Below, one piece after another: positions 9,504-25,508 of a stretch of 64,000 nt of DNA (position 1 is its first letter; every line of letters begins with the position of its first letter). The stretch spans positions 12,388 through 76,387 of IMG/VR virus record IMGVR_UViG_3300044797_000094; one strand, given 5' to 3'. Under the pieces are notes generated by a model. The model had not been told where the DNA came from, did no database searches, and saw only the letters and a program-made list of their open reading frames with translations. A program made the position numbers and the translations under genes. Source of the DNA: a virus.

Positions 9504-9972
9504 TTGCCAGATTCGTTGGATGATTCTTCGAGACATGCCAAATATTCTGGCGATTGAAAAACGTGCGTTCGACTTTCCGTGGGATGAAGCCGACTTCAAA
9601 ACAGCCCTCAAGCGGCGGTCATGTATCGGGATGGTCGCGGAGGAACACGAAGCGATCGTCGGTTATTTCGTTTACGATTTGTGTGATGGATTTATTCACG
9701 TGCTCAATCTGGCTGTCGATCCGACTCATGCTCGGCGTGGAATCGGAACAAAACTCATCACTCGGTTGATTGAAAAGATCTCGCAGCAACGGCGAACGCG
9801 GATTTGCATGGAAGTTCGAGAGAGCAATCTTGGCGCTCAGTTGTTCTTGAAAAATCAAGGATTCGTCGCTCAATGCATCGTGAAGAATCATTATTGCGAC
9901 ACAGGCGAAGAATCCTACAGATTTGAGTACGAGCTGCCAGAATGCGGGATTCCGACGTTTGTTAAACGGTAA
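9475..9972 (+). CDS. rimI: GNAT acetyltransferase, RimI-like
   Basis: NLAVDPTHARRGIGTKL, EVRESNLGAQLF..GF, NHY..GEESY. Confidence 0.85.
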   Translation: MRTKQAAETDCQIRWMILRDMPNILAIEKRAFDFPWDEADFKTALKRRSCIGMVAEEHEAIVGYFVYDLCDGFIHVLNLAVDPTHARRGIGTKLITRLIEKISQQRRTRICMEVRESNLGAQLFLKNQGFVAQCIVKNHYCDTGEESYRFEYELPECGIPTFVKR

Positions 9973-10026
9973 TTATTTGGTCCGAGATCGAGCGAAGCGG
10001 CGTGACTTGTGGGACGTCCCTGCATA

Positions 10027-10932
10027 ATGGCTGAGTTGCCAAATAGATCCGATCTCGAAGCCCGATTCGCGAAACGGTTCGGCAGAATCGCTAGACGGCA
10101 CATGCGTGAATTCCGCCAGCTTCTCGGCGACCCCCCGAACATTGACAACGTTCCTGAAGCCTTCTACGAAAAGATGCAGCGTGAAGTGGACGCGGAAACC
10201 TACGCGATTCTGCTGCTGATCTTCGACGATTCGGCGTTGCTTCACGGATGGAGCGGTCCTGATCAAGCAATGGCGTCATACGGCTGGGCGAAACAGAGAG
10301 CCGATGCGTTCTCTCAATCGTGGGCCGAGTCGACGCGAACGAAGTTGGAAAAAGGCTTTGAGAGACTGGAGGGACCAATTGCTCAACGCGAAGAAACCAC
10401 AGAAGAGGCTAGAGAGTCGAATCGCACGATCCCCGCCGAACGAAAACCAGTCACTCAAAAAGAGGTCGATGAACTAATCGATTCGACATGGTCCCCGAAA
10501 ACGATCGAAAGATGGGCGGTCGACGAGACGACGACGGCGCAACACGCCGGCGGTGAAGCTGGCATTGAAGCGACGGTCGGCCTGAACGAAAACGACATTT
10601 GGCGTTGCGATTGGCGGCATGACAACGTGTGCGAGGAATGCTCGCCGCTTGACGAAAAGCCACGTTCTGTTTGGTCGGCAAAGTTCCCAGACGGTCCGCC
10701 GTCTCCACATTTTTTTTGCCGATGCTGGATTCAATATGCCCCAATTGGTGCGAATAAAAGCGCGGCGAGGAAAAGTCTTGAATCAAAAGCATTCGTCGAT
10801 GCCTGGCACCGCACAATCCCCGAAGCCGCCGAATGGCGTGCATATTGCCGAGAGAACGGCGTTGATGTCGAGAATCAAGCGAAATTCAAAGCATTCAATG
10901 TCAGCGAACCTCGGGCTTCAGATGGCGAATAG
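10027..10932 (+). CDS. MuF/SPP1 gp7-like minor head protein
   Basis: W..DNVCEECSPLD...GPPSPHFFCRC motif, in a head-gene neighbourhood. Confidence 0.8.
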   Translation: MAELPNRSDLEARFAKRFGRIARRHMREFRQLLGDPPNIDNVPEAFYEKMQREVDAETYAILLLIFDDSALLHGWSGPDQAMASYGWAKQRADAFSQSWAESTRTKLEKGFERLEGPIAQREETTEEARESNRTIPAERKPVTQKEVDELIDSTWSPKTIERWAVDETTTAQHAGGEAGIEATVGLNENDIWRCDWRHDNVCEECSPLDEKPRSVWSAKFPDGPPSPHFFCRCWIQYAPIGANKSAARKSLESKAFVDAWHRTIPEAAEWRAYCRENGVDVENQAKFKAFNVSEPRASDGE

Positions 10933-10936
10933 ATCG

Positions 10937-10982
10937 AAATTGTTGACGATTTATTGACATTGAGCCTTCAATCTGCTAAGAT
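10937..10982 (+). promoter_or_regulatory. Operator-like box plus strong promoter, likely driving the sugar/Cas operon
   Basis: AAATTGTTGACGATTT (10937-10952); TTGACA-N17-TAAGAT with extended TG. Confidence 0.75.
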
Positions 10983-11027
10983 GAGGTCCGTCAATCACGA
11001 AGCCATTAACAAAATAAGGAAGCGACG

Positions 11028-11444
11028 ATGTCTAAAGAATTTGGGATCGCAAGAAACACTGCGTCTGCTCAAGCGTGGCTTGATCAATGCGATGCGGTGT
11101 CGATCGTCGAAGAACTGAACGATGAGTGGTTGGAATTTGCCTTCGATCCGTCAATCGAAGTATTCGCGGTTCCCGATCATCTCGTATGGTTTGATCAAGG
11201 GGCGGCTCCCGCCGAAGCGACTGAGATATTGAATGCTCGTCACAATACGAGCGATGACGAGGAATGGTTGAAAAGGCTTTTGTGTCGCATCGCGAGCGGT
11301 GACCAGGATATGGTCGCTGCGGAATTCCAAAAGATACCTTGTCTTGATAATGGATGGGACTGGGGAGACGTCTTGAATAAATTGCAAACTGGGGAAATCA
11401 CCAGGGAAGATATTGAGTATGCAATTCATGCGCCGCTTTGCTGA
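11028..11444 (+). CDS. Hypothetical protein
   Basis: TAAGGA RBS; 138 aa. Confidence 0.65.
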   Translation: MSKEFGIARNTASAQAWLDQCDAVSIVEELNDEWLEFAFDPSIEVFAVPDHLVWFDQGAAPAEATEILNARHNTSDDEEWLKRLLCRIASGDQDMVAAEFQKIPCLDNGWDWGDVLNKLQTGEITREDIEYAIHAPLC

Positions 11445-11453
11445 TCGGAGAAG

Positions 11454-11642
11454 GTGATGCTTCTTGGCCGCTTTTACAGATTTCAATGCGATACCTGCGG
11501 CAAAACCGTCGAATGCACGATCCTTCCAAAGAATTGGGTATGGATTAAAGGCGGACCGGAAGGCTTCAAGAAACACGCCTGCGAAGTCTGCAAATCTACA
11601 ATTCCGAAAGAGATTCGTCGTCCGTCAGGAATTCCGAACTGA
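11454..11642 (+). CDS. Small Zn-finger protein
   Basis: CDTC...LPKNW...HACEVC. Confidence 0.6.
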   Translation: MMLLGRFYRFQCDTCGKTVECTILPKNWVWIKGGPEGFKKHACEVCKSTIPKEIRRPSGIPN

Positions 11643-11645
11643 AAG

Positions 11646-12593
11646 ATGCGGCCAATGAAAATCCTCGTCACCGGCGGAGCTGGCTACCTCGGGTCCGTGC
11701 TCGTAACGGATCTGCTGTATTCCGGATACGACGTCACAGTCCTGGATTTGTTCAAAGGCGATTCAAGCCGATCTTTGGTTGAATTGTGCGGATCGAAGGA
11801 AGTGCGGTTCACGCCGATCAAGGGGGATGTCCGCAACTTGACTGACCTCAGCGTCGCAATGGCTCGATGCGACATCCTAATTCCATTGGCGGCTATTGTT
11901 GGCGCTCCAGCATGCGAGGATGATTGGGGCGCGACCAGCACAAACCTCAGCGCCATCGAACAAATGATTGGATTGCGATCGCAGAGCCAGGCAATCCTTT
12001 TTCCATGCACAAACAGCGGCTACGGAATCAGCAGGCATCATGAAATCTGCGACGAAGAATCGCCACTGGCACCGATCAGTAAATATGGCAGATTGAAGGT
12101 AGCGGCCGAGAGGATCGTCTTGAATGACGGAAACAGCGTGACATTCCGCTTCGCCACCCTGTTCGGTTGTTCCCCTCGAATGCGACTGGATTTGCTCGTC
12201 AATGACTTCGTTTATCGGGCCGTGAAAGACCGGTCGATCATCGTGTTTGAGGGACACGCCAAGCGAAACTACTTGCACGTGCGAGATGCCTCAAGAGCCT
12301 TTCTCCACGCAATCGAAAACTTCGAAGCGATGGAAGGCCGCCCGTACAATGTGGGCCTGTCAGACGCGAACCTGTCCAAGCTGGAGTTGTGCGAGCGAAT
12401 CAAGCGACATGTGCCGGAACTGTTTTACAGCGAATCGCCGATTGGAGAAGATCCAGACAAGCGGGACTACGTCGTGTCGAACAAGCGAATTGAAGCGACT
12501 GGCTTCAAACCGAAGTATTCGCTGGACGATGGGATCAGGGAATTGATCAAGGCGTATTTGATGCTGGATGCCGCGAGATACAGGAACGCTTGA
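11646..12593 (+). CDS. NAD-dependent NDP-sugar epimerase/dehydratase
   Basis: TGGAGYLGS, LAAIVGAPAC, YGRLK. Confidence 0.9.
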   Translation: MRPMKILVTGGAGYLGSVLVTDLLYSGYDVTVLDLFKGDSSRSLVELCGSKEVRFTPIKGDVRNLTDLSVAMARCDILIPLAAIVGAPACEDDWGATSTNLSAIEQMIGLRSQSQAILFPCTNSGYGISRHHEICDEESPLAPISKYGRLKVAAERIVLNDGNSVTFRFATLFGCSPRMRLDLLVNDFVYRAVKDRSIIVFEGHAKRNYLHVRDASRAFLHAIENFEAMEGRPYNVGLSDANLSKLELCERIKRHVPELFYSESPIGEDPDKRDYVVSNKRIEATGFKPKYSLDDGIRELIKAYLMLDAARYRNA

Positions 12594-12769
12594 TGGAACG
12601 CTTCAATGAGCGAGCGATCTGGGTTGCAGCGTGCGGCATTCTCATCGTCTGCAATCTCTTGCTTCGTGCCGATCTCGGAAACACTCAACATGATTTACGG
12701 ATGGCGATTGAGCGTGAGCGAACATTGAATCGAATGTTGGACGTCATGATAGACAAGGACAATCGGTGA
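12593..12769 (+). CDS. Small membrane-anchored protein (58 aa, below the ORF-track cut-off)
   Basis: Manual translation MERFNERAIWVAACGILIVCNLLL...; overlaps both neighbours. Confidence 0.5.
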   Translation: MERFNERAIWVAACGILIVCNLLLRADLGNTQHDLRMAIERERTLNRMLDVMIDKDNR

Positions 12770-13986
12770 GCCTTACAAACTGCCGCATATGCGATTCCAC
12801 AAAACTGGATTTAATCCTCGATCTCGGCATGCAACCCTGGGCAAATCACTTTCTCAAGAAAGAGGAGTGTGGCACAGAACCGAAATATCCGCTTCGATTG
12901 GTTCGTTGCGACGAATGTTCGCTCGCTCAATTGGATTTCACCGTGCCGAAAGAAACGATGTTCGTCGATCACACGTATCTGAGCGGCACGACGAAATCTC
13001 TCGGCACCCATTTCAAGAAAGTTGCGGATGATGTGGTTGATCGATTCTTCGGACCGTACCCGCGAAATCGATCTGTTCTTGACATTGGATCGAACGACGG
13101 GACACAGCTCAGGAATTACAAGGAGAAGGGATGGCGAGTCCTGGGATGCGAACCGTGCAATAGCGCGGCGAAGATGGCGAACGATTCAGGAATTCCCACA
13201 TTGATCAATTTTTTCAGGGCCGGTTTTTCGGAGGCATGTGGGACATTTGACGTCATCAATGCTTCTGGCGTCCTGTTCCATTTGGAGGATCTTCATTCTG
13301 TCATGGAGGAAATTCGCCGAGCATTGAAGCCGCAGGGGATCTTCGTCGCCCAATTCCTCTACATGCCCAGCATCGTCGAAAACTGCGCCTTCGATCAAAT
13401 CTATCACGAACACTTGCTTTACTACACGATGAAGACGTTTTGCGACCTGATTGAACGACACGGACTACACTGCTTCGATGCTTATTTTTCGCCGATCCAC
13501 GGAGGGTCAATCGTCGCGTTCTGTGAGCACAAAAGCATCGACAATCTGACATCGTATCGGCTCGATCAATTGCGGGGCGGAGAAGAAGAAATTGGAGCGA
13601 ACATGAAAGAGACGTACGAAGGGTTCGCCAGGTCAGTGTTTGCGAAGCGACTTGAACAGAGGAAGCAATTAAACGGCTGGCGGATGCTGGACAAAAAGGT
13701 GTTCGGATTAGGCGCTCCGGTTAAAGGCAACACATTGCTGAATTACTGCCGAGTCGGGCCTGAATTGATCGAGTGTCTCGTCGAACGCAATTCGCTCCGT
13801 CGCGGACTCTGTGCCCCCGGCTCGCATATTCCTGTCGTGATGGAGGACGAACTGACGGAAGATCCAGACGTCTATTATGTTCTGGCGTGGAATTACAAGG
13901 GTGAGATTCTGGAACGGTACGAGGATAAGATCGAAGCGGGCGTCGAGTTTTACTTTCCGATCAATCCGAAAGGTGTCGCATCGTGA
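12766..13986 (+). CDS. NDP-sugar C-methyltransferase-like SAM-dependent methyltransferase
   Basis: CRIC Zn motif, LDIGSNDG, DQIYHEH, IHGGS, GAPVKGNTLLNY, LAWNY. Confidence 0.9.
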   Translation: MSLTNCRICDSTKLDLILDLGMQPWANHFLKKEECGTEPKYPLRLVRCDECSLAQLDFTVPKETMFVDHTYLSGTTKSLGTHFKKVADDVVDRFFGPYPRNRSVLDIGSNDGTQLRNYKEKGWRVLGCEPCNSAAKMANDSGIPTLINFFRAGFSEACGTFDVINASGVLFHLEDLHSVMEEIRRALKPQGIFVAQFLYMPSIVENCAFDQIYHEHLLYYTMKTFCDLIERHGLHCFDAYFSPIHGGSIVAFCEHKSIDNLTSYRLDQLRGGEEEIGANMKETYEGFARSVFAKRLEQRKQLNGWRMLDKKVFGLGAPVKGNTLLNYCRVGPELIECLVERNSLRRGLCAPGSHIPVVMEDELTEDPDVYYVLAWNYKGEILERYEDKIEAGVEFYFPINPKGVAS

Positions 13987-14264
13987 GAACAGCATTCAAG
14001 AGACCGTGGCCGAGCGATGCGGTCATCATCGTTTGCGCGTCGCCGGAAGACGCGAATCGAAGCAACATGTCGTCGATCCAGTCCGGAAAGTGTCGAGACT
14101 GCGGCGATGACATCCTGGTCGATGGAAAATCGATCGACTCGGGGATGCGGATGAATGAGCGATGTGGAAGACCGGTCGAATTCCTGTGTGTGGATTGCGC
14201 CGTTGAATACGACATGCATACGATCGAGAAACTGGTTGACCATCGAAAGAAATCCGGAACATGA
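13983..14264 (+). CDS. Small Zn-binding protein
   Basis: CRDC...CVDC; coupled overlaps. Confidence 0.55.
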   Translation: MRTAFKRPWPSDAVIIVCASPEDANRSNMSSIQSGKCRDCGDDILVDGKSIDSGMRMNERCGRPVEFLCVDCAVEYDMHTIEKLVDHRKKSGT

Positions 14265-15190
14265 ACATCTTCGTCACCGGCGCAACGGGCTTCCTTGGTC
14301 GTCATCTTTGCAGGCGATTAAGCAAGGACGGTCATCGAGTCGCCGAAATCGACTCTCATCAATGCGACCTCACAAAACCGATCGAGCAACAAATCAGACT
14401 TGGCTTCGACGTCGATGTGATCTTCCATCTGGCCGCGTGGACGCAGGCCGGGGACTTTTGCTTGCATCATCCCGGAGAACAATGGCTGATCAACCAAAAG
14501 ATCAACACGAACGTCCTGGACTGGTGGCGTCAGGAAAATCCAGAGGCGAAACTGATCTCGATCGGCAGCAGTTGCGCCTACGATCCAGATGGCGACATGC
14601 GTGAGGAAAACTATCTTCGAGGAACGCCGCACCACGACCTTTTCGCCTACGCGACGGCCAAACGAATGCTCCATGTAGGGCAACTCGCGATGGAGATCCA
14701 ATACGGGATGAAATCCCTGACGCTCGCCCCGGCGACGCTCTACGGCGTCGCTTATCACACGGACGAACGTCAGCCGCATTTTATCTTCGATATCGTCCGA
14801 AAGATTCTTAGAGGAAAACAGAATGCGGAACCTGTCATCCTCTGGGGCTCGGGCTTCCAAAAGCGGGACGCGATTCATGTGGGCGACTTCGTGGAAATCG
14901 CCGTCCAATGTCTTGGGACCTCGCCGTGCGGAATTTTGAACATCGGCCCAGGTTCCGCTTTGACGATCCGCGAATACGCTCGCGTCGTCTGCGATCTTAT
15001 TGGCTTTGAATCTGAAATGATTCAGTACGATCACGACGCTTATTCAGGCCAAAAATCAAAAATTCTGGACGTCGGTCGGCTTCGAAGAACGTTCCCTGGA
15101 TTTCTTAATACGCCGCTGAACATTGGACTTCAGCAGGTGATTGATTGGTACAAGGCTAATCCGCAACTCCTCGCGCCGAAAGGTGAGTGA
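14261..15190 (+). CDS. GDP-fucose-synthase-like epimerase/reductase
   Basis: TGATGFLG, HLAA, GSSCAY, YATAK, LWGSG..RD. Confidence 0.9.
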   Translation: MNIFVTGATGFLGRHLCRRLSKDGHRVAEIDSHQCDLTKPIEQQIRLGFDVDVIFHLAAWTQAGDFCLHHPGEQWLINQKINTNVLDWWRQENPEAKLISIGSSCAYDPDGDMREENYLRGTPHHDLFAYATAKRMLHVGQLAMEIQYGMKSLTLAPATLYGVAYHTDERQPHFIFDIVRKILRGKQNAEPVILWGSGFQKRDAIHVGDFVEIAVQCLGTSPCGILNIGPGSALTIREYARVVCDLIGFESEMIQYDHDAYSGQKSKILDVGRLRRTFPGFLNTPLNIGLQQVIDWYKANPQLLAPKGE

Positions 15191-15840
15191 TGTCAATCAT
15201 TGGAGCGTCAAGCCTACTCGCGGTAAACGTCGGCGATGATCACTGCTTCTATTGCGGCGACAAGGCTAATCGATCATTGAAAGTCTCCGACACATTTGCC
15301 GATGGCTGGTGCGTCGCGTATCCGCAGTCGAAAATGATGTGCTGCGGCTGTGAGATGAGCCTTGACGAAAAGATCGCGATTGCAGGCAAGGAAAAGCCAC
15401 AAAAGTTCCGCAATTATTCGTGGCATATAAGCCGATCAAAGGCAACCCCCATGACTAAGGCCAACAAGCGGGAGATGACGGGGCTGTTACTTGAGCCGCC
15501 GAGTGAGCCTTGGGCGTTCGCGATTGCCGAGAGCGGCCAGAAGCATCTCGTTTATCGAACACCAGCGAATCTCGGTGACGGGCCGTTCGTCGTTCGTCTT
15601 GAAGATGAACTCGTTGTGTACTCGCCTCGATCGCTGCGTGACAGAATTGATTTGTGCAGAGCTGTCGTGGCTGTCGTCGGCCATAAGGGCGCCAACGATT
15701 TCTCGGTGACGTCCGTGATCGCTCTCGGTTTAGAATTGGCGCTGCAATGGGAAGCGGTCTATCGAGAGCCATTAACACGCCTGGCGTTATTCGTAACGCC
15801 TGGGAAATCCGAGTGTGAAGAAATTGAGGATGACTTATGA
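15187..15840 (+). CDS. csf1: Type IV CRISPR large subunit Csf1 (Cas8-like)
   Basis: CFYCG..CCGC Zn finger; LLEPP.EPWAFAIAESGQKHL motif; first gene of the Csf cluster. Confidence 0.8.
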   Translation: MMSIIGASSLLAVNVGDDHCFYCGDKANRSLKVSDTFADGWCVAYPQSKMMCCGCEMSLDEKIAIAGKEKPQKFRNYSWHISRSKATPMTKANKREMTGLLLEPPSEPWAFAIAESGQKHLVYRTPANLGDGPFVVRLEDELVVYSPRSLRDRIDLCRAVVAVVGHKGANDFSVTSVIALGLELALQWEAVYREPLTRLALFVTPGKSECEEIEDDL

Positions 15841-16319
15841 TCAAGATTCTGGACTGTGCGGAGTATCGACGGCAGCTTGCTGGCCTGGCTGACGTCTCGG
15901 GGGGCGAAGATTCATTCGCCGACGAATACCGGGAGATGACGAGCGAATGCGTGTTGCTACTGGCGATCTGTTTCAATCGACGACAGCTTGAGGCGGTCAC
16001 GATCTGGAGTCGTATCGACGCGGCGATACAGAAGGGCCTCGCTGATTGCGACGGCGAGGACGTCGATCGATTCCTGTCAACGTGTCTGGAGCACGTCCTC
16101 GCGAATATCAGCGTCGTCGCATCACAACCGGACGCGATCAGAATTCAGCAGTCGATCCTGAAGCTGAGCGGCGACGAACGAGTCTATTTCCTCCAGTACC
16201 TCGCGAAGCATAGATACGTCGCCATCGTGCTCGGTCGAGAAAAGTGGGAGATGCGGAAGGCGGAAATCGCGGCGCAATTAAAGTCGCTCGACACGACGGA
16301 AACGGCGGTGTCCGAATGA
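15837..16319 (+). CDS. cas11: Type IV-B small helical subunit (Cas11-like)
   Basis: 160-aa helical protein between csf1 and csf2; positional inference. Confidence 0.6.
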   Translation: MIKILDCAEYRRQLAGLADVSGGEDSFADEYREMTSECVLLLAICFNRRQLEAVTIWSRIDAAIQKGLADCDGEDVDRFLSTCLEHVLANISVVASQPDAIRIQQSILKLSGDERVYFLQYLAKHRYVAIVLGREKWEMRKAEIAAQLKSLDTTETAVSE

Positions 16320-17170
16320 AGGTGTTCTGCGCATCGACAAACATTAGTCCGGTCAGTCATCAACTCGGAACCGTTGGCAACGAATCGATCGTGAATGTCG
16401 AGGACGTCCGAACGCCGCTGGGTTCGAGAAAAGTTCCGGTCCTCAGCGGGAACGCGATTCGGCATCGGATGATCAGGGCTCCCGGCGCGGATTATCTCAT
16501 TGACGCCCTGGGCCTTCATGGAAAGCTGTCGCGGGACGTTCTTAATCTTCTTTATCACGGAGGAATCAAACGAGAAAAAGGGAAAAGCCCATCGCTGGCG
16601 AGAATCGCGGATATGCATCGGTTGTTTCCGCTGCTGCGATTACTCGGTGCTTGCCTGCCGGAAGCGATCGTCGCCGGTGAACTCACGGCGCATCGAGCCA
16701 TGCTGGCGTGCCGAGAGAATCAGTCGCGGATCAATGCCATCGCTCCGAAAGGCTGGGAATTTGAAGGACACCTCGCGCCTGCGACGTCGTTCATCGAGAG
16801 GTGGCAATACGTGCGAGGCGTGATGAAGCATTCACTCGCGCATTCGGCCACTGACACGACCGACAAGGATGAATCGACAATGATGCCCTTCGCGGGAACG
16901 TGCGTGATTCCCGGAGCGGTCTGGGTTCATGGGTTCTCGATGTCGATATGTTCGCAAATTGAGTTCGGTTGCCTTTTGCATTGTCTGCGGAAATGGGATG
17001 CGGACGGTGCGACGATCGGCGGACAATCATCGCGAGGGCATGGTATTCTGCAATTGTCGATTTGGACAGACGCCGAGTTTGATCACGATGAATCGATATC
17101 AGCATACGAAGAGCACGTCGATGACAATAAGGGCGATTGCGTGGAATTTCTTCGAGGTTGCTATTCATGA
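16316..17170 (+). CDS. csf2: Type IV Cas7 backbone Csf2
   Basis: SPVSH, VPVLSGNAIRHRMIR, FPLLRLLG, G-loop IGGQSSRGHG. Confidence 0.85.
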   Translation: MKVFCASTNISPVSHQLGTVGNESIVNVEDVRTPLGSRKVPVLSGNAIRHRMIRAPGADYLIDALGLHGKLSRDVLNLLYHGGIKREKGKSPSLARIADMHRLFPLLRLLGACLPEAIVAGELTAHRAMLACRENQSRINAIAPKGWEFEGHLAPATSFIERWQYVRGVMKHSLAHSATDTTDKDESTMMPFAGTCVIPGAVWVHGFSMSICSQIEFGCLLHCLRKWDADGATIGGQSSRGHGILQLSIWTDAEFDHDESISAYEEHVDDNKGDCVEFLRGCYS

Positions 17171-17892
17171 GCCTGATTAAGTCGCCAAAGCACACGGCTT
17201 CGGACTTGACTGTCTGGCGCGAATTGGAATACGCGGATCGAGTCCATGCCAGGCATGGAGCGCTGCGAAGAAAATGGGACAGGTGCTTAAGTCTCGCGAA
17301 AGAATTCGCCGATGGTGGACCTTGTCACTGCTCGACGAGCTGGGGAAAGGACTCCGTGGTGACGGCATTCGCGGTAATGACTGTCGCTCCGAAAACTCCG
17401 CTGTGCTGGATCAGGGTAGAACCCGTCAAGTCGCCAGAATGCGTTCTTGTGCGAGACGTTTTTCTGAGGAGATTCCCGAAATGCGATTACCACGAGACCG
17501 AGGTCGTCTGCGAGAAAGATGAGGATGGATGGCATGCGACGGGAACGCTCGAAAAAGGAATCAAGATTCTTGATGAGCGATTCGGCCCGCGAACGATCCT
17601 CGGTATTCGAGCCGAAGAATCGTCTCACCGTTTCCTGAGTATCGCATCAAGCGGTTGCAACACGAAGAATAAATCGAGGCCGTGCGGATCGCTGACAGAG
17701 AAAGACGTCTTCGGATTGCTGAGCATGCACGATCTGCCGATCCATCCCGCATATGCGATGACCGGCGGCGGAAGGTGGCCCCGAGAACACTTACGGGTCG
17801 CGTCGCTCGGCGGAAAGCGTGGGCAGGGCTTCGGGCGGCTGGAATGGGAGCGTGAATATTACGCAGACGAACTTCGGAGGATTGGAGAATGA
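17167..17892 (+). CDS. CysH/PAPS-reductase-like protein of the type IV-B system
   Basis: PP-loop SWGKDS, GIRAEES..R, LPIHPAY. Confidence 0.85.
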   Translation: MSLIKSPKHTASDLTVWRELEYADRVHARHGALRRKWDRCLSLAKEFADGGPCHCSTSWGKDSVVTAFAVMTVAPKTPLCWIRVEPVKSPECVLVRDVFLRRFPKCDYHETEVVCEKDEDGWHATGTLEKGIKILDERFGPRTILGIRAEESSHRFLSIASSGCNTKNKSRPCGSLTEKDVFGLLSMHDLPIHPAYAMTGGGRWPREHLRVASLGGKRGQGFGRLEWEREYYADELRRIGE

Positions 17893-18602
17893 AGACGCGA
17901 TTCGTCAAGGTGACGGCGCACCTGATATCGCCAGTCGCGTTGTCACCGGAAGGCGAAGCCCCGCATCTGGACGCGATTTGTGAACTTGTTCTCGCTCAGC
18001 ACACGAGATCGATCGCGGCATCCTCCAACGGAAATCGGCATCTTCTCGACGTCGCCAAGATTCGTGGACAGGAAGTGTCAGCTCAGGGGCAATTGCCGAT
18101 ACCGATCGTGCGTGAGAAGGTCGATGGCATCCCGGTTCCGCGATGTTCGTTCGGCATCATGGAAAAGACTCAAGAAACCGCCGAGCATTACCACTGCGCG
18201 TTCCCGATTGAACGGGCGATTGAGGTCAGCGAGAAGGAGCGGATTCAGATCAGGACGACGGGCGGCGTCTACAAATCGGTCAGGTTGCCGCTGCGATTGT
18301 CGACGACATCGCGGATTGTCTGGTTCGCCGAACTGCGAGAATCCCCATGCAAATTGCGAAAACTCGTCAATCAAATAGAAACGCTCGGAAAGAAATCGGT
18401 GTACGGTTATGGGCGAGTTTCGGAATGGACCGTGGAAGAAACCGATATCGACGCAAGTTGGTTTCATGGCGGCGTGTTGATGCGTGCTCTCCCGATTTCA
18501 GTCGTGTCCGACGACATTCAGGGGAAGCGACGATCATACGGAGCTGTCGCAGGCCCGTATTGGCAGCGATCATTTTTTGTCGATCGATACGTCCCGTATT
18601 AA
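17889..18602 (+). CDS. csf3: Type IV Cas5-like Csf3
   Basis: SPV..PHLDAI, G-loop LGKKSVYGYGRVSEW, MRALP, PYW. Confidence 0.85.
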   Translation: MKTRFVKVTAHLISPVALSPEGEAPHLDAICELVLAQHTRSIAASSNGNRHLLDVAKIRGQEVSAQGQLPIPIVREKVDGIPVPRCSFGIMEKTQETAEHYHCAFPIERAIEVSEKERIQIRTTGGVYKSVRLPLRLSTTSRIVWFAELRESPCKLRKLVNQIETLGKKSVYGYGRVSEWTVEETDIDASWFHGGVLMRALPISVVSDDIQGKRRSYGAVAGPYWQRSFFVDRYVPY

Positions 18603-19586
18603 CTAAGCCCGATAAATAATCTCGCTTCCTTTTGCGTTGATACGTATCGGAACTTCGGGGCAGCCCGGCAAAGCCGCGACGACGGACGCTCGTTTCTCGG
18701 GCGGAACGATGAACAAAAGGAAGCCGCCGCCTCCGGCCCCGAGAAGCTTTCCGCCCCATGCTCCGTGGCGAATCGCCGTTTCATAGAATTCGTCGATCTT
18801 TCCGCTTGAGATCCCGTCATCAAGCGTTTTCTTGCGAATCCATGTTTGATGCATGAGTGTTCCGAATTGATAAAACTCGCCGCCACGTAAAGCCGCCGCT
18901 CCGACGTCGACACATTCGTAAAGCTCTCGCAGAGTTGAAAGATTGTCGCCGATCTTGTCAATCTGCTTCGCGGCGATATCGCTCGCCCGCCTTCGGACGC
19001 CGGTGTAAACAAAAAGCAGATGCGACTCAAAATTGCGGATCAAATCGTCCGACAGATTCAGTGGATGAATGGAAAACTGTTCATGACCGCCAAATCGGAC
19101 GACATTCAGTCCGCCGTGCGATGCGGTAATCTGATCCTGATAGCCGACAGATTCACGGAGCGTCGTTCGCTCCACGTCAATCGCACATTCGGCAAGTCGA
19201 TGATTGCCGCCGACAATTCCGAGAAGGCCCCAAATCGTTCTCAGGAGCCCAACGACGAAGCTGGATGATGATCCAGTCCCGGAGAAGCTCGGCAAGTCGG
19301 CATGAAGGCTAAATTCGAGCCCGGACCGCAATCCGTGGAACTTGAGGATCTCGCGAAATGGCGTGTGTTCCATTTCCTCAAGTTCCTTCACGAGTTCGAC
19401 CTTGGAATAGGCGATGCGAAGCTTGTAGTCGAAAAGTTCCGGATTGAATCGACTCGCGGAAATGAAAATCGATTTGTCAATCGCCGTGGCGAGAACAGCG
19501 CCAGGTCCGTACTTCTCGAAATATTCCGGATAATCCGTTCCTCCGCCAAAAAAGCTGATCCGAAATGGAGTGCGAGAGATGATCAC
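18603..19586 (-). CDS. hddA: GHMP kinase, D-glycero-alpha-D-manno-heptose-7-phosphate kinase-like
   Basis: RTPFRISFFGGGTD, GTGSSSSF, GYQDQ, GGKLLGAGGGGF. Confidence 0.85.
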   Translation of the reverse strand: MIISRTPFRISFFGGGTDYPEYFEKYGPGAVLATAIDKSIFISASRFNPELFDYKLRIAYSKVELVKELEEMEHTPFREILKFHGLRSGLEFSLHADLPSFSGTGSSSSFVVGLLRTIWGLLGIVGGNHRLAECAIDVERTTLRESVGYQDQITASHGGLNVVRFGGHEQFSIHPLNLSDDLIRNFESHLLFVYTGVRRRASDIAAKQIDKIGDNLSTLRELYECVDVGAAALRGGEFYQFGTLMHQTWIRKKTLDDGISSGKIDEFYETAIRHGAWGGKLLGAGGGGFLLFIVPPEKRASVVAALPGCPEVPIRINAKGSEIIYRA

Positions 19587-20344
19587 GAAGGCTGCTTCCA
19601 ATGCTTCCAGTGCTTTGCAGTGAACTCGTCTGCGATTGCCAGAGATTCCGGCGTACCAATATCGATGAAATCGCCTTTGACGGGAATGACGCGAATCCGC
19701 GTTCCTAGAATCAGGCAGTTCGGAATCACAACTTCCTCAAAACTGACAGGAGACTCGAGAACACCTTTGCAGATCGGCAGTCCATCCGGAATGAATTCGA
19801 ACATTTCCGGTTTGATGAAATAAATTCCAGCGTTGATATAGCCGGGCGTCGATTCATTCTTTCGAATCGATCGCAACATCAGTTCCGCATTGAAGAGCAG
19901 CTTGCCAAATCGCGAACAATCCTCTTGCCAAGCGGCGAGCATCGAGATCCAGGCGTCGGACTGTTTTGGGATCGAGACGGCATATGGCAAGTCGTCGCTG
20001 ATCAGGAGTGAGTCTCCGTTGAAGACGATCGCTGAATGATCCTTGTATTGCTCCCAAGCGTTGCGGATCGCTCCGGCCGTCCCTCGCGGGGACCGCTCTT
20101 CGGCGACGTTCGTGAGCGGTGGCAAATCGAGCGTGTTCAAAATCTCGAACGCCTTTTCCCGTTGATAGCCGGTTGCAATCGCGGTTCTCTGAATTCCGAG
20201 CGACTTGATCTGCCAGAGCACACGCTGGATGAACGGATGGCCAGCGACTTCGATGAACGGCTTGGGGATGGTTGGATGCAAATGAGCGATGCGAGTACCT
20301 TTTCCGCCCGCAAGGACGATTGCGACGGGCTCATTCGAATCCAT
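19583..20344 (-). CDS. hddC: Sugar-1-phosphate nucleotidyltransferase, HddC-like
   Basis: LAGGKGTR, PKP, GTAGAI, NGDS, INAGIY, DIGTPES; coupled to hddA. Confidence 0.8.
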   Translation of the reverse strand: MDSNEPVAIVLAGGKGTRIAHLHPTIPKPFIEVAGHPFIQRVLWQIKSLGIQRTAIATGYQREKAFEILNTLDLPPLTNVAEERSPRGTAGAIRNAWEQYKDHSAIVFNGDSLLISDDLPYAVSIPKQSDAWISMLAAWQEDCSRFGKLLFNAELMLRSIRKNESTPGYINAGIYFIKPEMFEFIPDGLPICKGVLESPVSFEEVVIPNCLILGTRIRVIPVKGDFIDIGTPESLAIADEFTAKHWKHWKQPS

Positions 20345-20381
20345 AAATCAGCGACTTTCGGAATAATTGTCGATTTGGAAT

Positions 20382-20429
20382 AAATTGATGACGATTTCCA
20401 TTGACTGCTGATGAAAAGATAATTAGAAT
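20382..20429 (+). promoter_or_regulatory. Operator-like box plus promoter
   Basis: AAATTGATGACGATTT (20382-20397); TTGACT-N17-TAGAAT. Confidence 0.75.
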
Positions 20430-20494
20430 CTCTTTTAACGCATCGCAACGAAATCGTGGTGACGGATGCGGATTCTAAACAAAGGAGAGACGAA

Positions 20495-21241
20495 GTGGCA
20501 ACAACGCAGTTAATCGCTCATCGCGGTTCACGGATCGTGGAACGATCGGAAGTAGACGCTGTTGAACCGGTCGAAGGGACTGACACATGGGTGCCGACAC
20601 CTCATGGGTTTGTTTTGGAAACTGTCGAAACAATTTTGATGAACGCCGGATTCGGCATCGCGAAATCGCGGTATGCTTTGTCGAAAGATGACGCCAGGTT
20701 CTTCGGAACGCTTGATCTGACAAGTCCGATTTCGGAAGGCGTCTCTCTCGCTGTCGGAGTAAGGAACTCGATCGACAAGACGTTTCCGATTGGTCTTGTG
20801 GCAGGCTCAAGAGTCTTCGTATGCGACAATCTGGCCTTTAACAGCGATATCTACGTCAGCAAGAAGCACACACGATTTGGCAAGGAACGATTCGATGAAG
20901 GAATATCAAAAGCGTTGGTCGCATTGAGCCACTTCAAGACATTGGAGTCTCGACGGATCGAACATTATCGCAATTTCGAACTGACCGAGACGCAAGCGGC
21001 AGCGACTCTGCTTCATGGATTCGAGAACGGAATTCTGAGCACGCAACTACTGCCGATCGCACTCGAGGAATGGCGGAATTCGAAGCATGAGGAATTTAGG
21101 CCAAGAACCGCATGGAGCTTATTTAATAGCCTCACGGAAGCGGCGAAAGCGCGTGCCTTGAATCCGCAGAAGTTCGCGGCCATTACAATGAAAATGTATG
21201 GTCTAATCGATTCCGTGTGCGGCTTCAATGTCGCGGTCTGA
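20495..21241 (+). CDS. DUF932-family protein
   Basis: GVRNSIDK...GSRVFVCDNLAF...KHT...TAWSLFNSLTE. Confidence 0.8.
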   Translation: MATTQLIAHRGSRIVERSEVDAVEPVEGTDTWVPTPHGFVLETVETILMNAGFGIAKSRYALSKDDARFFGTLDLTSPISEGVSLAVGVRNSIDKTFPIGLVAGSRVFVCDNLAFNSDIYVSKKHTRFGKERFDEGISKALVALSHFKTLESRRIEHYRNFELTETQAAATLLHGFENGILSTQLLPIALEEWRNSKHEEFRPRTAWSLFNSLTEAAKARALNPQKFAAITMKMYGLIDSVCGFNVAV

Positions 21242-21310
21242 AGTCAATTCAACGTGGCCTCGTGTGATGTGAGGCCGCTCTTTCTGGTTGAAAACATTTT
21301 GGAGAATTCG

Positions 21311-22087
21311 ATGACTATGAGAATTGAAAATGGCTTTGTAATCGACGAACGAAACAATCGAGCAAGCATTCCTCAGTATGAATCGGAAGATGCCGCGAAA
21401 GCGGCTCTTGAAAGCTGCTCTGACTGCTCTGACTGCTCTGACTGCTCTGACTGCTATGGCTGCTCTCGCTGCTCTCGCTGCTCTCGCTGCTATGGCTGCT
21501 CTGACTGCTCTGGCTGCTCTGGCTGCTCTCGCTGCTCTCGCTGCTATGGCTGCTCTGGCTGCTCTGGCTGCTCTGACTGCTCTGACTGCTCTGACTGCTC
21601 TGGCTGCTCTGGCTGCTCTGACTGCTCTGGCTGCTCTGGCTGCTCTCGCTGCTCTCGCTGCTCTCGCTGCTCTCGCTGCTATGGCTGCTCTGACTGCTCT
21701 GGCTGCTCTGACTGCTCTGGCTGCTCTGACTGCTCTGACTGCTCTGACTGCTATGGCTGCTCTGACTGCTCTCGCTGCTCTCCAAAACAAATGTCCGAAG
21801 AGGCCCCAGTTATCGAAAAAATCCACAAAAAGATTTACGAAGCTGCGTCAGCTCCAGGTGCGTTTTGCATGAACGATTGGCATAAATGCAAAACAACACA
21901 TTGCCGAGCCGGATGGACAGTGGAGCTCGCCGGTGAGGCCGGTAAGAAATTGGAAGAGCGAACATCGACGCTGTTCGCGGCAATGCAAATCTACAAGGCA
22001 TCTGGATATCTGATATCTCCATGTCGATTCTTCGACAGCGACGAGAAGGCAATGGAAGACATGAAACGGCTGGCCGAACAATCCTGA
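21311..22087 (+). CDS. Cys-X-X repeat protein with C-terminal WH-C-TTHCRAGW domain
   Basis: 41 CxX units; C-terminal domain resembles that of phage pentapeptide-repeat proteins. Confidence 0.75.
   Translation: MTMRIENGFVIDERNNRASIPQYESEDAAKAALESCSDCSDCSDCSDCYGCSRCSRCSRCYGCSDCSGCSGCSRCSRCYGCSGCSGCSDCSDCSDCSGCSGCSDCSGCSGCSRCSRCSRCSRCYGCSDCSGCSDCSGCSDCSDCSDCYGCSDCSRCSPKQMSEEAPVIEKIHKKIYEAASAPGAFCMNDWHKCKTTHCRAGWTVELAGEAGKKLEERTSTLFAAMQIYKASGYLISPCRFFDSDEKAMEDMKRLAEQS
21416..21784 (+). repeat. 9-bp coding tandem repeat, ~41 units
   Basis: Units TGCTCTGAC, TGCTCTGGC, TGCTCTCGC, TGCTATGGC. Confidence 0.95.
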
Positions 22088-24071: not shown

Positions 24072-25508
24072 ATGAGTGCGGGCCAATCTTTACCGAGACG
24101 TAGAACGGCAGGTTGGCTGTACTCCATCAAGGCGGAAGGCATCTCGCCGAATTCCTTGATGCTCGACCATGTGGATTCAGTTCCGCCTTACGTCGATCAA
24201 CAGAAAATGAGCGTTCGGGCCAGAATCTCGAACGCGGCGATTGATCGAGTCGGCGACGTGCTGGTTCCACGTGGATGCCAGGTCGAAAATTACAGACTCA
24301 ATCCTGTCGTACTGTGGAACCACGGACTCGATCCATCGCTCACCAAACCGCTCGGAATGTCTGAAGACGAAGATGGCAATCTTTCTATTGAGATTACTGA
24401 CGACGACGTATTTGCAACGTGCTTTTTTAGCCAAAAAGACGCCGATGCCGCTCAGTTTTTCTCTCTCATCGCAGAAAAAATCATCAGGGCCACAAGCGTT
24501 CGGGAAACGCCCGTGGAAGGGTTTTCGAAAGACGTTTGGCGGAATGGTCAACGCGTTAAGCAGGTTGGTCGGTGGGATCTCGAAGAGTGGTCGTTTTGTT
24601 CTGTTGGGGTCAATCCAGAGGCTATCGCGAAATGCCTTTCTCGTAATCGACTTGACGGAAGGCGAATCTCGGAACCGATTTACAAATCTCTTTCAGCGGT
24701 CGCTCCCAAGCCACAAAAACCCGGCATCGGCTTTGATTTGAAGGAAACGCCAATGGTCGAAAAACTTCGCATGCCGAACGACATGGACGACGACGGGGAA
24801 GAGAAGGATGTCACAAAAATGAACGGCCCAACCGACGACAACGACAAAAAAGACCCCGGAGAAGTTCCCGCCGACCAAGCACGTGGAACCGACGTGGAAG
24901 ACGATTCGGACGATGACGAGGACACGACGCAAATCGCTCCTGAGCCCGAGCCCGGCGGAGACCCGAGCAAGCAACCGTATGGCTCGCAAGTCATCAAATG
25001 CCTCCACGGTGCCCTCAAGTCCGCCTGCAAGGCGACGAATGAATGCCTCGGACCGCAATTGGAACACCAAGGCGTCAAAGACGACGTCGGAGCGGTCAAT
25101 GATGTAATGAAGGGCCAGATGAAAGCGTTGGAAGGTTCCCACCTGAAGCACTATCCAGCAATGAAATGCGACCTGAAGTCCGACGACATGGATGGCGACG
25201 ATGACGAAGAATCCGGCGAAGACTCGACCGGCGATTCCGACATGAAGGCGTTTCTGGCCGGAGCGACAGGACGTCAACATCAGATCTTCGGTGTGGCTCA
25301 TCGCCTGAAAGAACTGTCGAAGTCAAAATCATTGACAGTCGCCGAACGCCGAATGCTCAAGTCCGACATCGAACATCTTGATTGGTTGATGGACCAAGCC
25401 AAATCCCAGGCCAAGGCAATCGCCAAAGCGGCGAGAAAGAAGCCGAGCACGAACGAGGCTCAACGCCTCAAAGCCCTCGAAGACCGATTGAACAAAGCCC
25501 TGTCCTGA
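24072..25508 (+). CDS. HK97-family prohead protease with acidic C-terminal extension
   Basis: DRVGD, NPVVLWNH, ATSV, LEEWSFCSVGVNPEA. Confidence 0.85.
   Translation: MSAGQSLPRRRTAGWLYSIKAEGISPNSLMLDHVDSVPPYVDQQKMSVRARISNAAIDRVGDVLVPRGCQVENYRLNPVVLWNHGLDPSLTKPLGMSEDEDGNLSIEITDDDVFATCFFSQKDADAAQFFSLIAEKIIRATSVRETPVEGFSKDVWRNGQRVKQVGRWDLEEWSFCSVGVNPEAIAKCLSRNRLDGRRISEPIYKSLSAVAPKPQKPGIGFDLKETPMVEKLRMPNDMDDDGEEKDVTKMNGPTDDNDKKDPGEVPADQARGTDVEDDSDDDEDTTQIAPEPEPGGDPSKQPYGSQVIKCLHGALKSACKATNECLGPQLEHQGVKDDVGAVNDVMKGQMKALEGSHLKHYPAMKCDLKSDDMDGDDDEESGEDSTGDSDMKAFLAGATGRQHQIFGVAHRLKELSKSKSLTVAERRMLKSDIEHLDWLMDQAKSQAKAIAKAARKKPSTNEAQRLKALEDRLNKALS

What the first reader, a model, noticed from the sequence alone, without database searches (positions are those of the whole stretch)
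15187..18602. Array-less type IV-B CRISPR-Cas module translationally coupled into a nucleotide-sugar operon
Seen: csf1-cas11-csf2-cysH-like-csf3, each joined by a 4-nt overlap. They continue an unbroken overlap chain from the epimerase at 11646, and csf3 ends 0 bp from the convergent hddA. No array, cas6, cas1/2 or dinG is in the window and there is no room for one next to the genes; cysH sits inside the effector genes. Known: IV-B systems typically lack arrays, carry CysH-like genes and have no established function. Inference: either an anti-CRISPR crRNA sponge, or a repurposed RAMP scaffold working with the PP-loop enzyme in the co-expressed modification pathway.
Basis: partly seen in the sequence, partly recalled or inferred. 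Interest (0 to 1): 0.82.

Follow-up and report, generated by a model that had tools for sequence, protein, structure and literature searches.

The report
Phage type IV-B CRISPR module
A peat-soil phage carries a complete, guide-array-less type IV-B CRISPR-like gene set fused into the same tight operon as sugar-building genes. No other IV-B locus or sugar locus examined shows this pairing, so it is a new example of a known but unexplained system, not a new pathway.

Summary
Window 15187-18602 encodes csf1, cas11, csf2, a CysH-like PP-loop enzyme and csf3, all intact and joined by ATGA/GTGA overlaps. The overlaps continue a chain that starts at 11646, and csf3 abuts the convergent sugar kinase gene with 0 bp between them. 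The 76-kb phage record (about 72% complete) has no array, mini-array, cas1, cas2, cas6 or dinG.

The typing as subtype IV-B is supported. The functional link to the sugar pathway is not:
- None of 53 other IV-B loci has a sugar gene within 10 kb.
- None of 80 viral loci with the same sugar kinase has csf genes.
- The closest retrievable relative (Csf2 77% identical) is flanked by a lipase and a homing endonuclease.
- Related phages lack the whole 9.5-kb island.

Most likely two cargo modules landed in one variable spot of the head-gene region.

Two smaller points are new. A small clade keeps cysH between csf2 and csf3, not after csf3. Within that clade, cysH has a history that disagrees with the other four genes, which suggests cassette exchange.

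Phage-borne IV-B is already in the literature, and this scan has noted it in many other genomes. Its function remains unknown. I rate this a new member of a known kind, of modest interest.

The parts
10933..20455 (.). Accessory island in the head-gene region (sugar genes plus the IV-B module). Related phages lack it.
   Evidence: In related phage L053 the homologues of window genes 10009-10932 and 20456-21241 lie about 550 bp apart. In L059 the 10009 homologue is followed directly by the 24072 homologue. Five related phage records have no Csf2 or HddA homologue (positive controls 97, 98).
10954..10982 (+). Sigma-70-like promoter match (TTGACA-17-TAAGAT with TG) at the left edge of the island. 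Weak evidence only.
   Evidence: The number of promoter-like sites in the region is not above the shuffled expectation. No other + strand match lies between 11000 and 18600.
11646..12593 (+). SDR sugar epimerase/dehydratase, the first gene of the overlap chain
   Evidence: Pfam Epimerase 1.4e-27. NCBIfam hits are all below cut-off.
12593..12769 (+). 58-aa ORF that bridges the epimerase and the methyltransferase by overlaps of 1 and 4 nt
   Evidence: No family match.
12766..13986 (+). Sugar C-methyltransferase
   Evidence: Pfam Methyltransf_14 1.2e-39 and Methyltransf_13 2.8e-20.
13983..14264 (+). 93-aa ORF of unknown function, overlap-coupled on both sides
   Evidence: no family.
14261..15190 (+). 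GDP-L-fucose-synthase-like SDR (3,5-epimerase/4-reductase type). Its stop overlaps the csf1 start.
   Evidence: Pfam Epimerase 5.5e-43. NCBIfam GDPFucSynFcl 2e-32, below cut-off. The best non-self homologue is only 56% identical.
15187..15840 (+). csf1 (type IV large subunit with a CxxC...CxxC zinc-finger motif)
   Evidence: PADLOC typeIV_Cas8 4.4e-54. TIGR03114 3e-14, below cut-off. C20, C23, C52 and C55 are conserved in alignment A6.
15837..16319 (+). cas11 (small subunit)
   Evidence: PADLOC typeIV_Cas11 1.6e-33.
16316..17170 (+). csf2 (Cas7 backbone subunit)
   Evidence: PADLOC typeIV_Cas7 3e-71. A family profile hits the solved type IV Cas7 chains 11fs_C (IV-C, 5e-17) and 7jhy_e (IV-B Csf2, 7e-7). 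90 homologues were found.
17167..17892 (+). CysH-like PP-loop ATP alpha-hydrolase (CasCysH), here placed between csf2 and csf3
   Evidence: PP-loop SWGKDS at residues 58-63, and all 22 invariant family residues are kept. AlphaFold model pLDDT 95. Top fold matches are PAPS reductases, the FAD synthase PAPS domain and CysD. A profile hits CysD at 1.9e-8 and PAPS reductases at about 1e-6. Pfam PAPS_reduct scores only 7e-4.
17889..18602 (+). csf3 (Cas5)
   Evidence: PADLOC typeIV_Cas5 1.4e-31.
18603..19601 (-). GHMP sugar kinase (HddA-like), convergent, 0 bp from csf3
   Evidence: Pfam GHMP_kinases_N/C. NCBIfam HddA 5e-42, but 144 bits against a 600-bit cut-off.
19583..20344 (-). Sugar-1-phosphate nucleotidyltransferase (HddC/ManC-like)
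   Evidence: NCBIfam hits 8e-30 to 3e-22, all below cut-off.

Best explanation
This is an intact, array-less subtype IV-B CRISPR-Cas effector module carried as accessory cargo by a tailed phage from peat. It sits in a 9.5-kb variable island of the head-gene region, where a nucleotide-sugar operon also landed. The two have been compacted into one overlap-coupled transcription unit. The coupling is genomic packing and shared expression, not a shared pathway.

Inferred from the solved IV-B complex and from the sequence features here:
- Csf2 and Cas11 form a helical filament on short RNA. Csf3 and the zinc-finger protein Csf1 cap it. Because there is no Cas6 and no array, the RNA comes from elsewhere (host guide RNAs or other small RNAs).
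- The CysH-like enzyme keeps a PP-loop but lacks the catalytic cysteine. It uses ATP to adenylate, and so modify or mark, a substrate held by the complex.
- For a phage, the likeliest benefit is counter-defence or competition with other mobile elements.

Shown here: identity and intactness of the genes, purifying selection on them, absence of array and processing genes, and non-recurrence of the sugar linkage. Inferred: RNP assembly, the ATP-dependent modification step and the biological role.
For: Identity of the genes:
- PADLOC type IV HMMs match at 1e-31 to 3e-71.
- The Csf2 family profile hits solved type IV Cas7 chains, including the IV-B complex 7JHY.
- Csf1 keeps its CxxC pairs.
- The CysH-like protein keeps the PP-loop and all 22 family-invariant residues. 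It folds with pLDDT 95 into the PAPS-reductase/ATP alpha-hydrolase fold.

Selection: dN between the window and L103 is 0.18-0.32 for the csf genes, with saturated dS. dN/dS is 0.05-0.11 where it can be computed.

Missing CRISPR parts: no array or mini-array, and no Cas1, Cas2, Cas6 or DinG.

Cargo status:
- Related phages lack the island.
- Five related phage records lack both Csf2 and HddA homologues (controls 97, 98).

Linkage is not conserved:
- 0 of 53 other IV-B loci have homologues of the window's sugar genes within about 10 kb.
- 0 of 80 viral HddA loci have csf genes.
- L103 (Csf2 77% identical) is flanked by a lipase and a NUMOD4/HNH endonuclease.
- The best non-self homologues of the flanking sugar genes are 56% identical, against 81% for Csf2.

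Overlap coupling is common in this genome: 10 of 51 same-strand junctions outside the chain are overlap-coupled.

Literature: the IV-B RNP binds heterogeneous RNA (PMC7937560). CasCysH is proposed to be an ATP alpha-hydrolase that AMPylates a substrate (PMC8175902, PMC13676074). IV-B has been reported in viruses (PMC10848311).
Against: - The sugar genes flank the module on both sides. The chain of nine consecutive overlaps is much tighter than the genome background of about 20%. No internal promoter-like site was found. So co-expression is real, and a functional tie cannot be excluded from sequence alone.
- Composition is uniform across the island, so there is no sign that the two modules arrived at different times.
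- The contigs of the closest Csf2 relatives (57-81% identity, Logan/ENA) could not be fetched, so their neighbourhoods are unseen.
- The mechanism itself (which RNA is bound, and what CysH modifies) is untested for any IV-B system.
Confidence: 0.72

Rival explanations
1. Functional integration with the sugar pathway. The Csf scaffold and the PP-loop enzyme take part in the co-expressed glycan or modification pathway, for example by adenylating a sugar intermediate or directing glycosylation of a nucleic acid.
For: The overlap chain runs unbroken from 11646 to 18602. Sugar genes lie on both flanks, and csf3 abuts the kinase gene with 0 bp between them. PP-loop enzymes do occur in some polysaccharide pathways (general knowledge, not tested here).
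Against: - The linkage is not seen in any of 53 other IV-B loci or 80 viral HddA loci.
- The nearest relative, L103, lacks it.
- The CysH-like protein is an ordinary member of the IV-B-specific CysH family, with all invariant residues.
- The phage's glycosyltransferases are GT25/GT2/GT4 types next to the tail genes, and no hydroxymethylase-type gene is present. This points to virion or protein glycosylation, not nucleic-acid glycosylation.
Confidence: 0.06
2. Pure guide-RNA sponge (anti-CRISPR). The complex soaks up host crRNAs or other guide RNAs and so disarms host immunity. The CysH-like enzyme has no essential catalytic role.
For: The module has no array and no Cas6, yet it is carried by a phage. 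The solved IV-B complex binds heterogeneous RNA (PMC7937560). The hypothesis is already in the literature (PMC7038947, PMC8175902).
Against: It does not explain why the CysH-like enzyme is kept with an intact PP-loop and 22 invariant residues. It also does not explain why related loci keep an enzyme in that slot. Pinilla-Redondo et al. themselves judged so complex an anti-CRISPR unlikely (PMC7038947). No host or host CRISPR is known for this phage.
Confidence: 0.15
3. Guided interference in trans. The complex borrows crRNAs from a host array, or from an array in the unassembled part of the phage, and targets competing elements.
For: The record is only about 72% complete. A Fuxivirus IV-B locus has a mini-array (PMC10848311).
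Against: No array, Cas6 or repeat-like element occurs in 76 kb. There is no intergenic space beside the genes. Most IV-B loci lack arrays (PMC12669027).
Confidence: 0.08
4. Decaying, non-functional remnant carried along passively.
For: It has no array and no nuclease, and it is cargo in a variable island.
Against: All five ORFs are intact and keep the family-invariant residues. dN/dS is well below 1. The translational coupling is tight. The CysH model is high-confidence.
Confidence: 0.03

Closest known systems
Subtype IV-B CRISPR-Cas (csf1-cas11-csf2-csf3 plus a cysH-like gene), e.g. the Mycobacterium sp. JS623 plasmid system, cryo-EM structure 7JHY (PMC7937560)
   Same: The same five gene families. 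No array, cas6, adaptation genes, dinG or nuclease. It is carried by a mobile element. The Csf2 family profile matches the 7JHY Csf2 chain.
   Different: - It is carried by a tailed phage, not an actinobacterial plasmid.
- cysH lies between csf2 and csf3, not after csf3.
- Csf2 is only distantly related to the solved one (E 7e-7). The profile scores better against the solved IV-C Cas7c (11fs, 5e-17).
- It is fused into an operon with sugar genes.
Virus-borne type IV-B systems: Bathyarchaeia 'Fuxiviridae' (PMC10848311), and 35 IMG/VR viral loci found here (L002-L036)
   Same: An array-less or nearly array-less IV-B effector with a CysH-like gene on a viral genome. In L013, L015 and L020 the module also lies within a few kb of the portal gene.
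   Different: - Fuxivirus has a mini-array and an archaeal host.
- In 40 of 41 comparison loci where csf2, csf3 and cysH are all detected, the order is csf3 then cysH (L005). L049 has no detectable csf3.
- None of them has sugar genes nearby.
- Several have an extra PAPS-reductase/DUF3440 gene plus a ParB-like gene between csf3 and cysH. The window has neither.
Metagenomic clade L103-L105 (VFSW01024966.1, SDBS01046439.1, Ga0136555_1006107)
   Same: The same gene order, csf1-cas11-csf2-cysH-csf3, with Csf2 60-77% identical. The clade has 100/100 support in the Csf2 tree.
   Different: - No sugar genes beside L103.
- The cysH genes are only 43-44% identical to the window's and do not form a clade with it.
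PAPS reductase / adenine-nucleotide alpha-hydrolase superfamily (CysH, CysD, FMN adenylyltransferase, TtuA, LarE)
   Same: The fold and the PP-loop.
   Different: There is no C-terminal catalytic cysteine motif. The Pfam PAPS_reduct score is below the gathering threshold. This is as described for CasCysH in PMC8175902.

Membership tests
Subtype IV-B CRISPR-Cas | Csf1 large subunit present | tested here: met
   PADLOC typeIV_Cas8 4.4e-54. TIGR03114 3e-14, below the curated cut-off. CxxC pairs are conserved.
Subtype IV-B CRISPR-Cas | Csf2 (Cas7) and Csf3 (Cas5) present | tested here: met
   PADLOC 3e-71 and 1.4e-31. The Csf2 profile hits 7jhy_e (IV-B Csf2) at 7e-7 and the IV-C Cas7c 11fs_C at 5e-17.
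Subtype IV-B CRISPR-Cas | Cas11 small subunit present (it distinguishes IV-B/IV-C from IV-A) | tested here: met
   PADLOC typeIV_Cas11 1.6e-33.
Subtype IV-B CRISPR-Cas | Associated cysH-like gene with a PP-loop and no catalytic cysteine | tested here: met
   SWGKDS at residues 58-63 and no C-terminal Cys motif. PAPS-reductase fold. Profile hits to CysD and CysH.
Subtype IV-B CRISPR-Cas | No dinG or recD helicase, no Cas10-like HD subunit, no cas6, no adaptation genes | tested here: met
   No Cas1, Cas2, Cas6_C or DEAD_2 domain in six frames of the 76-kb record. The large subunit is a 217-aa Csf1. Caveat: the record is about 72% complete.
Subtype IV-B CRISPR-Cas | No CRISPR array at the locus | tested here: met
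   No repeat pair at 40-130 bp spacing in the whole record. The spacer on each side of the module is 0 bp.
Subtype IV-B CRISPR-Cas | Csf2 falls in the IV-B clade of a reference type IV Cas7 phylogeny | tested here: inconclusive
   No reference set of typed IV-A/B/C/D/E Cas7 sequences was available. The PADLOC model descriptions read 'CAS-IV-A' even for Cas11, so they do not resolve subtype. The profile scores higher against the IV-C Cas7c than against the actinobacterial IV-B Csf2. The subtype call rests on gene content.
Subtype IV-B CRISPR-Cas | Forms an RNP on RNA | not testable with these tools
   This needs purification and RNA sequencing. It is known only for the JS623 system (PMC7937560).
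   HddA model: 144 bits against a 600-bit cut-off. HddC model: 79 bits against 300. They are best described as a GHMP sugar kinase and a sugar-1-phosphate nucleotidyltransferase of that general kind.
Csf1 with a C-terminal sliding-clamp docking peptide (lead from earlier scan reports) | C-terminal QxxLF-type motif | tested here: not met
   The window's Csf1 ends in an acidic tail (...SECEEIEDDL). Some relatives (L007, L009, L025) end in TLF, SLFE or RLFD.

The most novel reading that the evidence does not exclude
The type IV-B Csf scaffold is a general platform whose enzyme slot is a swappable cassette. In this clade cysH sits inside the operon, and its history disagrees with that of the scaffold genes. 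In this phage the platform would have been recruited to the co-expressed nucleotide-sugar pathway, for example to mark or glycosylate an RNA or DNA held by the complex. The operon fusion would then reflect a real new function.
Probability: 0.05. Interest if true: 0.85.

Novelty: new member of a known kind. Interest (0 to 1): 0.3.

Why it matters
Type IV-B is among the few CRISPR-Cas subtypes whose function is still unknown (PMC13676074, Sept 2026). A conserved link to a defined metabolic pathway would have been a real clue. The survey here shows that the sugar link is a one-off, so it should not guide experiments.

Three results are still useful:
- IV-B modules are common on IMG/VR viral contigs: 35 loci from one scan.
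- A distinct clade carries cysH inside the effector operon.
- In that clade cysH evolves or is exchanged independently of the scaffold genes. That fits the idea that the enzyme is a modular effector attached to a conserved RNA-binding scaffold.

This compact, five-gene, overlap-coupled phage operon would also be a convenient construct for purifying a complete IV-B complex together with its CysH partner.

Tried and rejected
The contigs of the closest Csf2 relatives (P0002-P0021, Logan/ENA/NCBI) could not be inspected. I used contig lengths as an indirect proxy instead.
- A single-protein scan of viral contigs with Csf2 found nothing. The alignment-based scan was needed.
- Megablast of 14000-20500 against GenBank phages gave no match.
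- Complex prediction with Csf1 + Csf3 + CysH (CysH as partner) gave no verdict, score 0.01. This is not evidence either way.
- The look-up of sequencing runs listed no RNA holder, so co-transcription across the epi2/csf1 junction could not be tested.
- Read laying showed only that identical fragments of this phage occur in two peat metagenome studies. One run is probably the source. A single X2 joint, 14750->24431 with a 21-nt side, was disregarded as unreliable.
- The promoter/terminator scan did not exceed the shuffled expectation. I use it only as a weak pointer.
- DNA hypermodification as a reading of the sugar genes was rejected. There is no thymidylate-synthase-type hydroxymethylase, and the transferases are GT25/GT2/GT4 types beside the tail genes.
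- The clamp-docking tail on Csf1 (an earlier scan lead) is absent in the window's protein.
- A composition test for separate acquisition was uninformative. GC and GC3 are uniform across the island.
- phmmer of the CysH-like protein alone against PDB found nothing. The family profile and the fold search were needed.


Full report
WHAT IS THERE

The window is bases 12388-76387 of a 76,387-bp IMG/VR virus record. The record is linear and CheckV estimates it at 72% complete. It is a tailed phage:
- a portal fused to a long C-terminal extension (32-4210)
- a major head protein (25566-26951)
- tail genes
- a DnaB-type helicase

The DNA comes from peat metagenomes. Identical fragments occur in runs of two studies, one of which is probably the source.

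At 15187-18602 lie five intact ORFs. PADLOC type IV models match four of them strongly: Csf1/Cas8 4.4e-54, Cas11 1.6e-33, Csf2/Cas7 3e-71 and Csf3/Cas5 1.4e-31. The NCBIfam equivalog models for csf1, csf2 and csf3 match only weakly and below their cut-offs, so these are divergent members.

The fourth gene (17167-17892) reaches only 7e-4 on Pfam PAPS_reduct. Other evidence places it in the IV-B CysH-like family:
- It carries a PP-loop, SWGKDS, at residues 58-63.
- It keeps all 22 residues that are invariant in an alignment of 30 IV-B-associated CysH-like proteins.
- It lacks a C-terminal catalytic cysteine.
- Its AlphaFold model is confident (pLDDT 95.2, pTM 0.92).
- The best structural matches are PAPS reductases, the PAPS domain of FAD synthase, the ATP sulfurylase subunit CysD, TtuA and LarE.
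- A family profile also reaches CysD (1.9e-8) and PAPS reductases by sequence.

This agrees with the published description of CasCysH (PMC8175902).

CHECK OF THE OBSERVATION

All four internal junctions and the upstream junction with the epimerase gene are ATGA/GTGA overlaps. An in-frame ATG at 15190 would give a 1-nt overlap as an alternative csf1 start.

The chain back to 11646 is unbroken only if a 58-aa ORF at 12593-12769 is counted.

The csf3 stop codon is followed immediately by the reverse-strand stop codon of the GHMP kinase gene.

No CRISPR-like repeat pair exists anywhere in the 76-kb record. The only repeat found is a 9-nt coding repeat at 21378-21800. No Cas1, Cas2, Cas6 or DinG-type domain is found in six frames. 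Each of these searches rang in control genomes. Rfam finds only a tRNA.

IS THE SUGAR LINKAGE MEANINGFUL?

This is the part of the finding that would have been new, so I tested it five ways.

1. Other IV-B loci.
   - An alignment-based scan found 35 IV-B loci on IMG/VR viral contigs and 14 on MAG or genome contigs, with Csf2 29-44% identical.
   - tblastn with the window's sugar proteins found no homologue within the +/-10 kb fetched at any of them.
2. The closest retrievable relatives.
   - L103-L105 have Csf2 60-77% identical and share the window's gene order.
   - L103 is the only one with usable flanks. It has a class 3 lipase upstream and a NUMOD4/HNH homing endonuclease downstream, and no sugar genes.
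3. The reverse survey. The GHMP kinase family is common in IMG/VR (452 hits). None of the best 80 loci carries any csf gene.
4. Related phages, found through the major head protein.
   - They keep the window's head and tail gene order but lack the whole segment 10933-20455.
   - In L053 the homologues of 10009-10932 and 20456-21241 are about 550 bp apart.
   - In L059 the 10009 homologue is followed by the 24072 homologue.
   - Five such phage records (46-100 kb) contain neither a Csf2 nor an HddA homologue (positive controls 97, 98).
5. Similarity levels.
   - The best non-self homologues of the two genes flanking the module are only 56% identical. Csf2 has relatives at 81%.
   - No contig length is shared between the Csf2 relatives and the listed homologues of the sugar genes.

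Overlap coupling is also a general habit of this genome: 10 of 51 same-strand junctions outside the chain are coupled. One extra coupled junction, between the epimerase and csf1, is therefore weak evidence of a functional tie.

The run of nine coupled junctions is exceptional, and no promoter-like site lies inside it. Co-transcription from the island's left edge is therefore likely. GC and GC3 are uniform across the island, which says nothing about the order of acquisition.

The glycosyltransferases of this phage are GT25, GT2 and GT4 types next to the tail genes, and no hydroxymethylase-type gene is present. The sugar pathway therefore looks like virion or protein glycosylation, not nucleic-acid modification.

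WHAT IS DISTINCTIVE ABOUT THIS MODULE

In the comparison loci where csf2, csf3 and cysH were all detected, cysH follows csf3, sometimes after 1-4 kb of other genes. The window and L103-L105 instead have cysH between csf2 and csf3. The four form a 100/100-supported clade in the Csf2 tree.

Within that clade the scaffold genes and cysH disagree:

| Comparison | Csf1 | Cas11 | Csf2 | Csf3 | CysH |
|---|---|---|---|---|---|
| Window vs L103, % identity | 64 | 75 | 77 | 77 | 43 |

- The window's CysH is closest to that of L026 (52% identical), whose Csf2 is only 41% identical.
- In the CysH tree the window pairs with L026 (support 98/94) and L103 pairs with L024.
- An AU test rejects holding the four together (p = 0.021). 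The group was defined from the Csf2 tree and the gene order, but I had already seen a quick CysH tree, so this p-value should be read with some caution.
- dN for cysH is about 3.5 times that of the scaffold genes.

Either the cysH cassette has been exchanged between lineages, or it evolves much faster than the scaffold.

The scaffold genes are under purifying selection, with dN/dS 0.05-0.11 where dS can be estimated.

MOST LIKELY MECHANISM

Shown here:
- a complete, conserved and selected IV-B gene set, including an apparently active PP-loop enzyme
- no means of making its own guides

Inferred:
- The closest experimentally characterised IV-B system (7JHY, PMC7937560) suggests that Csf2 and Cas11 assemble as a filament on short RNAs with little sequence preference.
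- Csf3 and Csf1 complete the complex.
- The CysH-like enzyme uses ATP to adenylate a substrate associated with the complex, as proposed in PMC8175902 and repeated in PMC13676074.
- For a phage, the plausible benefit is counter-defence or competition with other mobile elements.

A pure guide-RNA sponge is an older hypothesis (PMC7038947). It does not explain the conserved enzyme.

None of these functional steps can be tested with sequence tools. The one attempt to support a CysH-Csf1/Csf3 contact gave no verdict and is not used as evidence.

COMPARISON WITH WHAT IS KNOWN

By gene content this is subtype IV-B. The clade test could not be done properly, for two reasons:
- The PADLOC model labels do not resolve subtype.
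- The Csf2 profile scores better against the recently solved IV-C Cas7c (11fs) than against the actinobacterial IV-B Csf2 (7jhy).

IV-B is known to be made of several divergent clades (PMC7038947).

Virus-borne IV-B is already published for Bathyarchaeia viruses. That paper also says type IV systems in general have been seen in prophages and several lytic phages (PMC10848311). Earlier reports of this scan describe phage IV-B modules in many other genomes. This one is therefore a new member of a known kind. It has a minor architectural variant (internal cysH) and an apparently incidental operon fusion.

VERDICT

- The IV-B typing is supported.
- The sugar-pathway interpretation is not supported.
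- Interest is modest (0.3).
- The bold reading, real functional recruitment to the glycan pathway, keeps about 5% probability until the neighbourhoods of the closest relatives can be inspected.

Noticed in passing
L007:11820-15028; L009:2880-4538; L015:12451-14240; L021:12884-14568; L029:11557-13447 (= L035): In five distinct viral IV-B loci, two extra genes lie between csf3 and the CasCysH gene. One is a second PAPS-reductase-family gene with DUF3440 (IbrA-like architecture). The other is a ParB_N/HTH (IbrB-like) gene. The window has no homologue of either.
   Followed up: partly
window 17167-17892 versus L026:11523-12254, L103:5380-6108, L104:2447-3193: The history of CysH disagrees with that of the Csf scaffold. 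The window's CysH is 52% identical to L026 but 43% to L103, while Csf2 shows 41% and 77%. An AU test rejects a common CysH clade (p = 0.021). This suggests cassette exchange in the enzyme slot.
   Followed up: yes
window 21254-22087 (repeat at about 21378-21800): This gene encodes about 45 tandem Cys-Ser-X tripeptides (CSD/CSG/CSR, with occasional CYG), produced by a 9-nt DNA repeat. No family match. It lies two genes to the right of the island.
   Followed up: no
A1 profile versus PDB (11fs_C, 7jhy_e): The Csf2 family profile of these phage IV-B modules scores much better against the solved type IV-C Cas7c (5e-17) than against the solved actinobacterial IV-B Csf2 (7e-7), although the loci have Csf1 and no Cas10-like subunit.
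   Followed up: no
L013:7123-8274; L015:17807-19803; L020:15972-18693: In three other distantly related phages the IV-B module lies 2-6 kb upstream of a portal homologue. L015 also has a homologue of window gene 24072-25508 there, and L020 a weak head-protein match. IV-B cargo next to the head module may recur.
   Followed up: partly
Csf1 C-termini in alignment A6 (L007, L009, L025): Some Csf1 relatives end in ...PTLF, ...VSLFE or ...TRLFD, which resemble clamp-docking peptides reported earlier in this scan. The window, L103 and L104 end in acidic tails instead.
   Followed up: partly
P0109 and P0220 (both on a 75,597-bp Logan contig): Homologues of the window's fucose-synthase-like gene (54% identical) and kinase gene (56%) share one contig length of 75,597 bp, close to this phage's size. 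No Csf2 relative is recorded on a contig of that length. It may be a relative that has the sugar genes but no IV-B module. The contig could not be fetched.
   Followed up: no
L053 (IMGVR_UViG_3300031251_000970): IMG/VR classes the closest long relative of this phage as a provirus, so the lineage may be temperate.
   Followed up: no
window 9391-9972: A GNAT acetyltransferase gene lies between the portal polyprotein region and the island. It is conserved in related phage L053 (43% identical).
   Followed up: no
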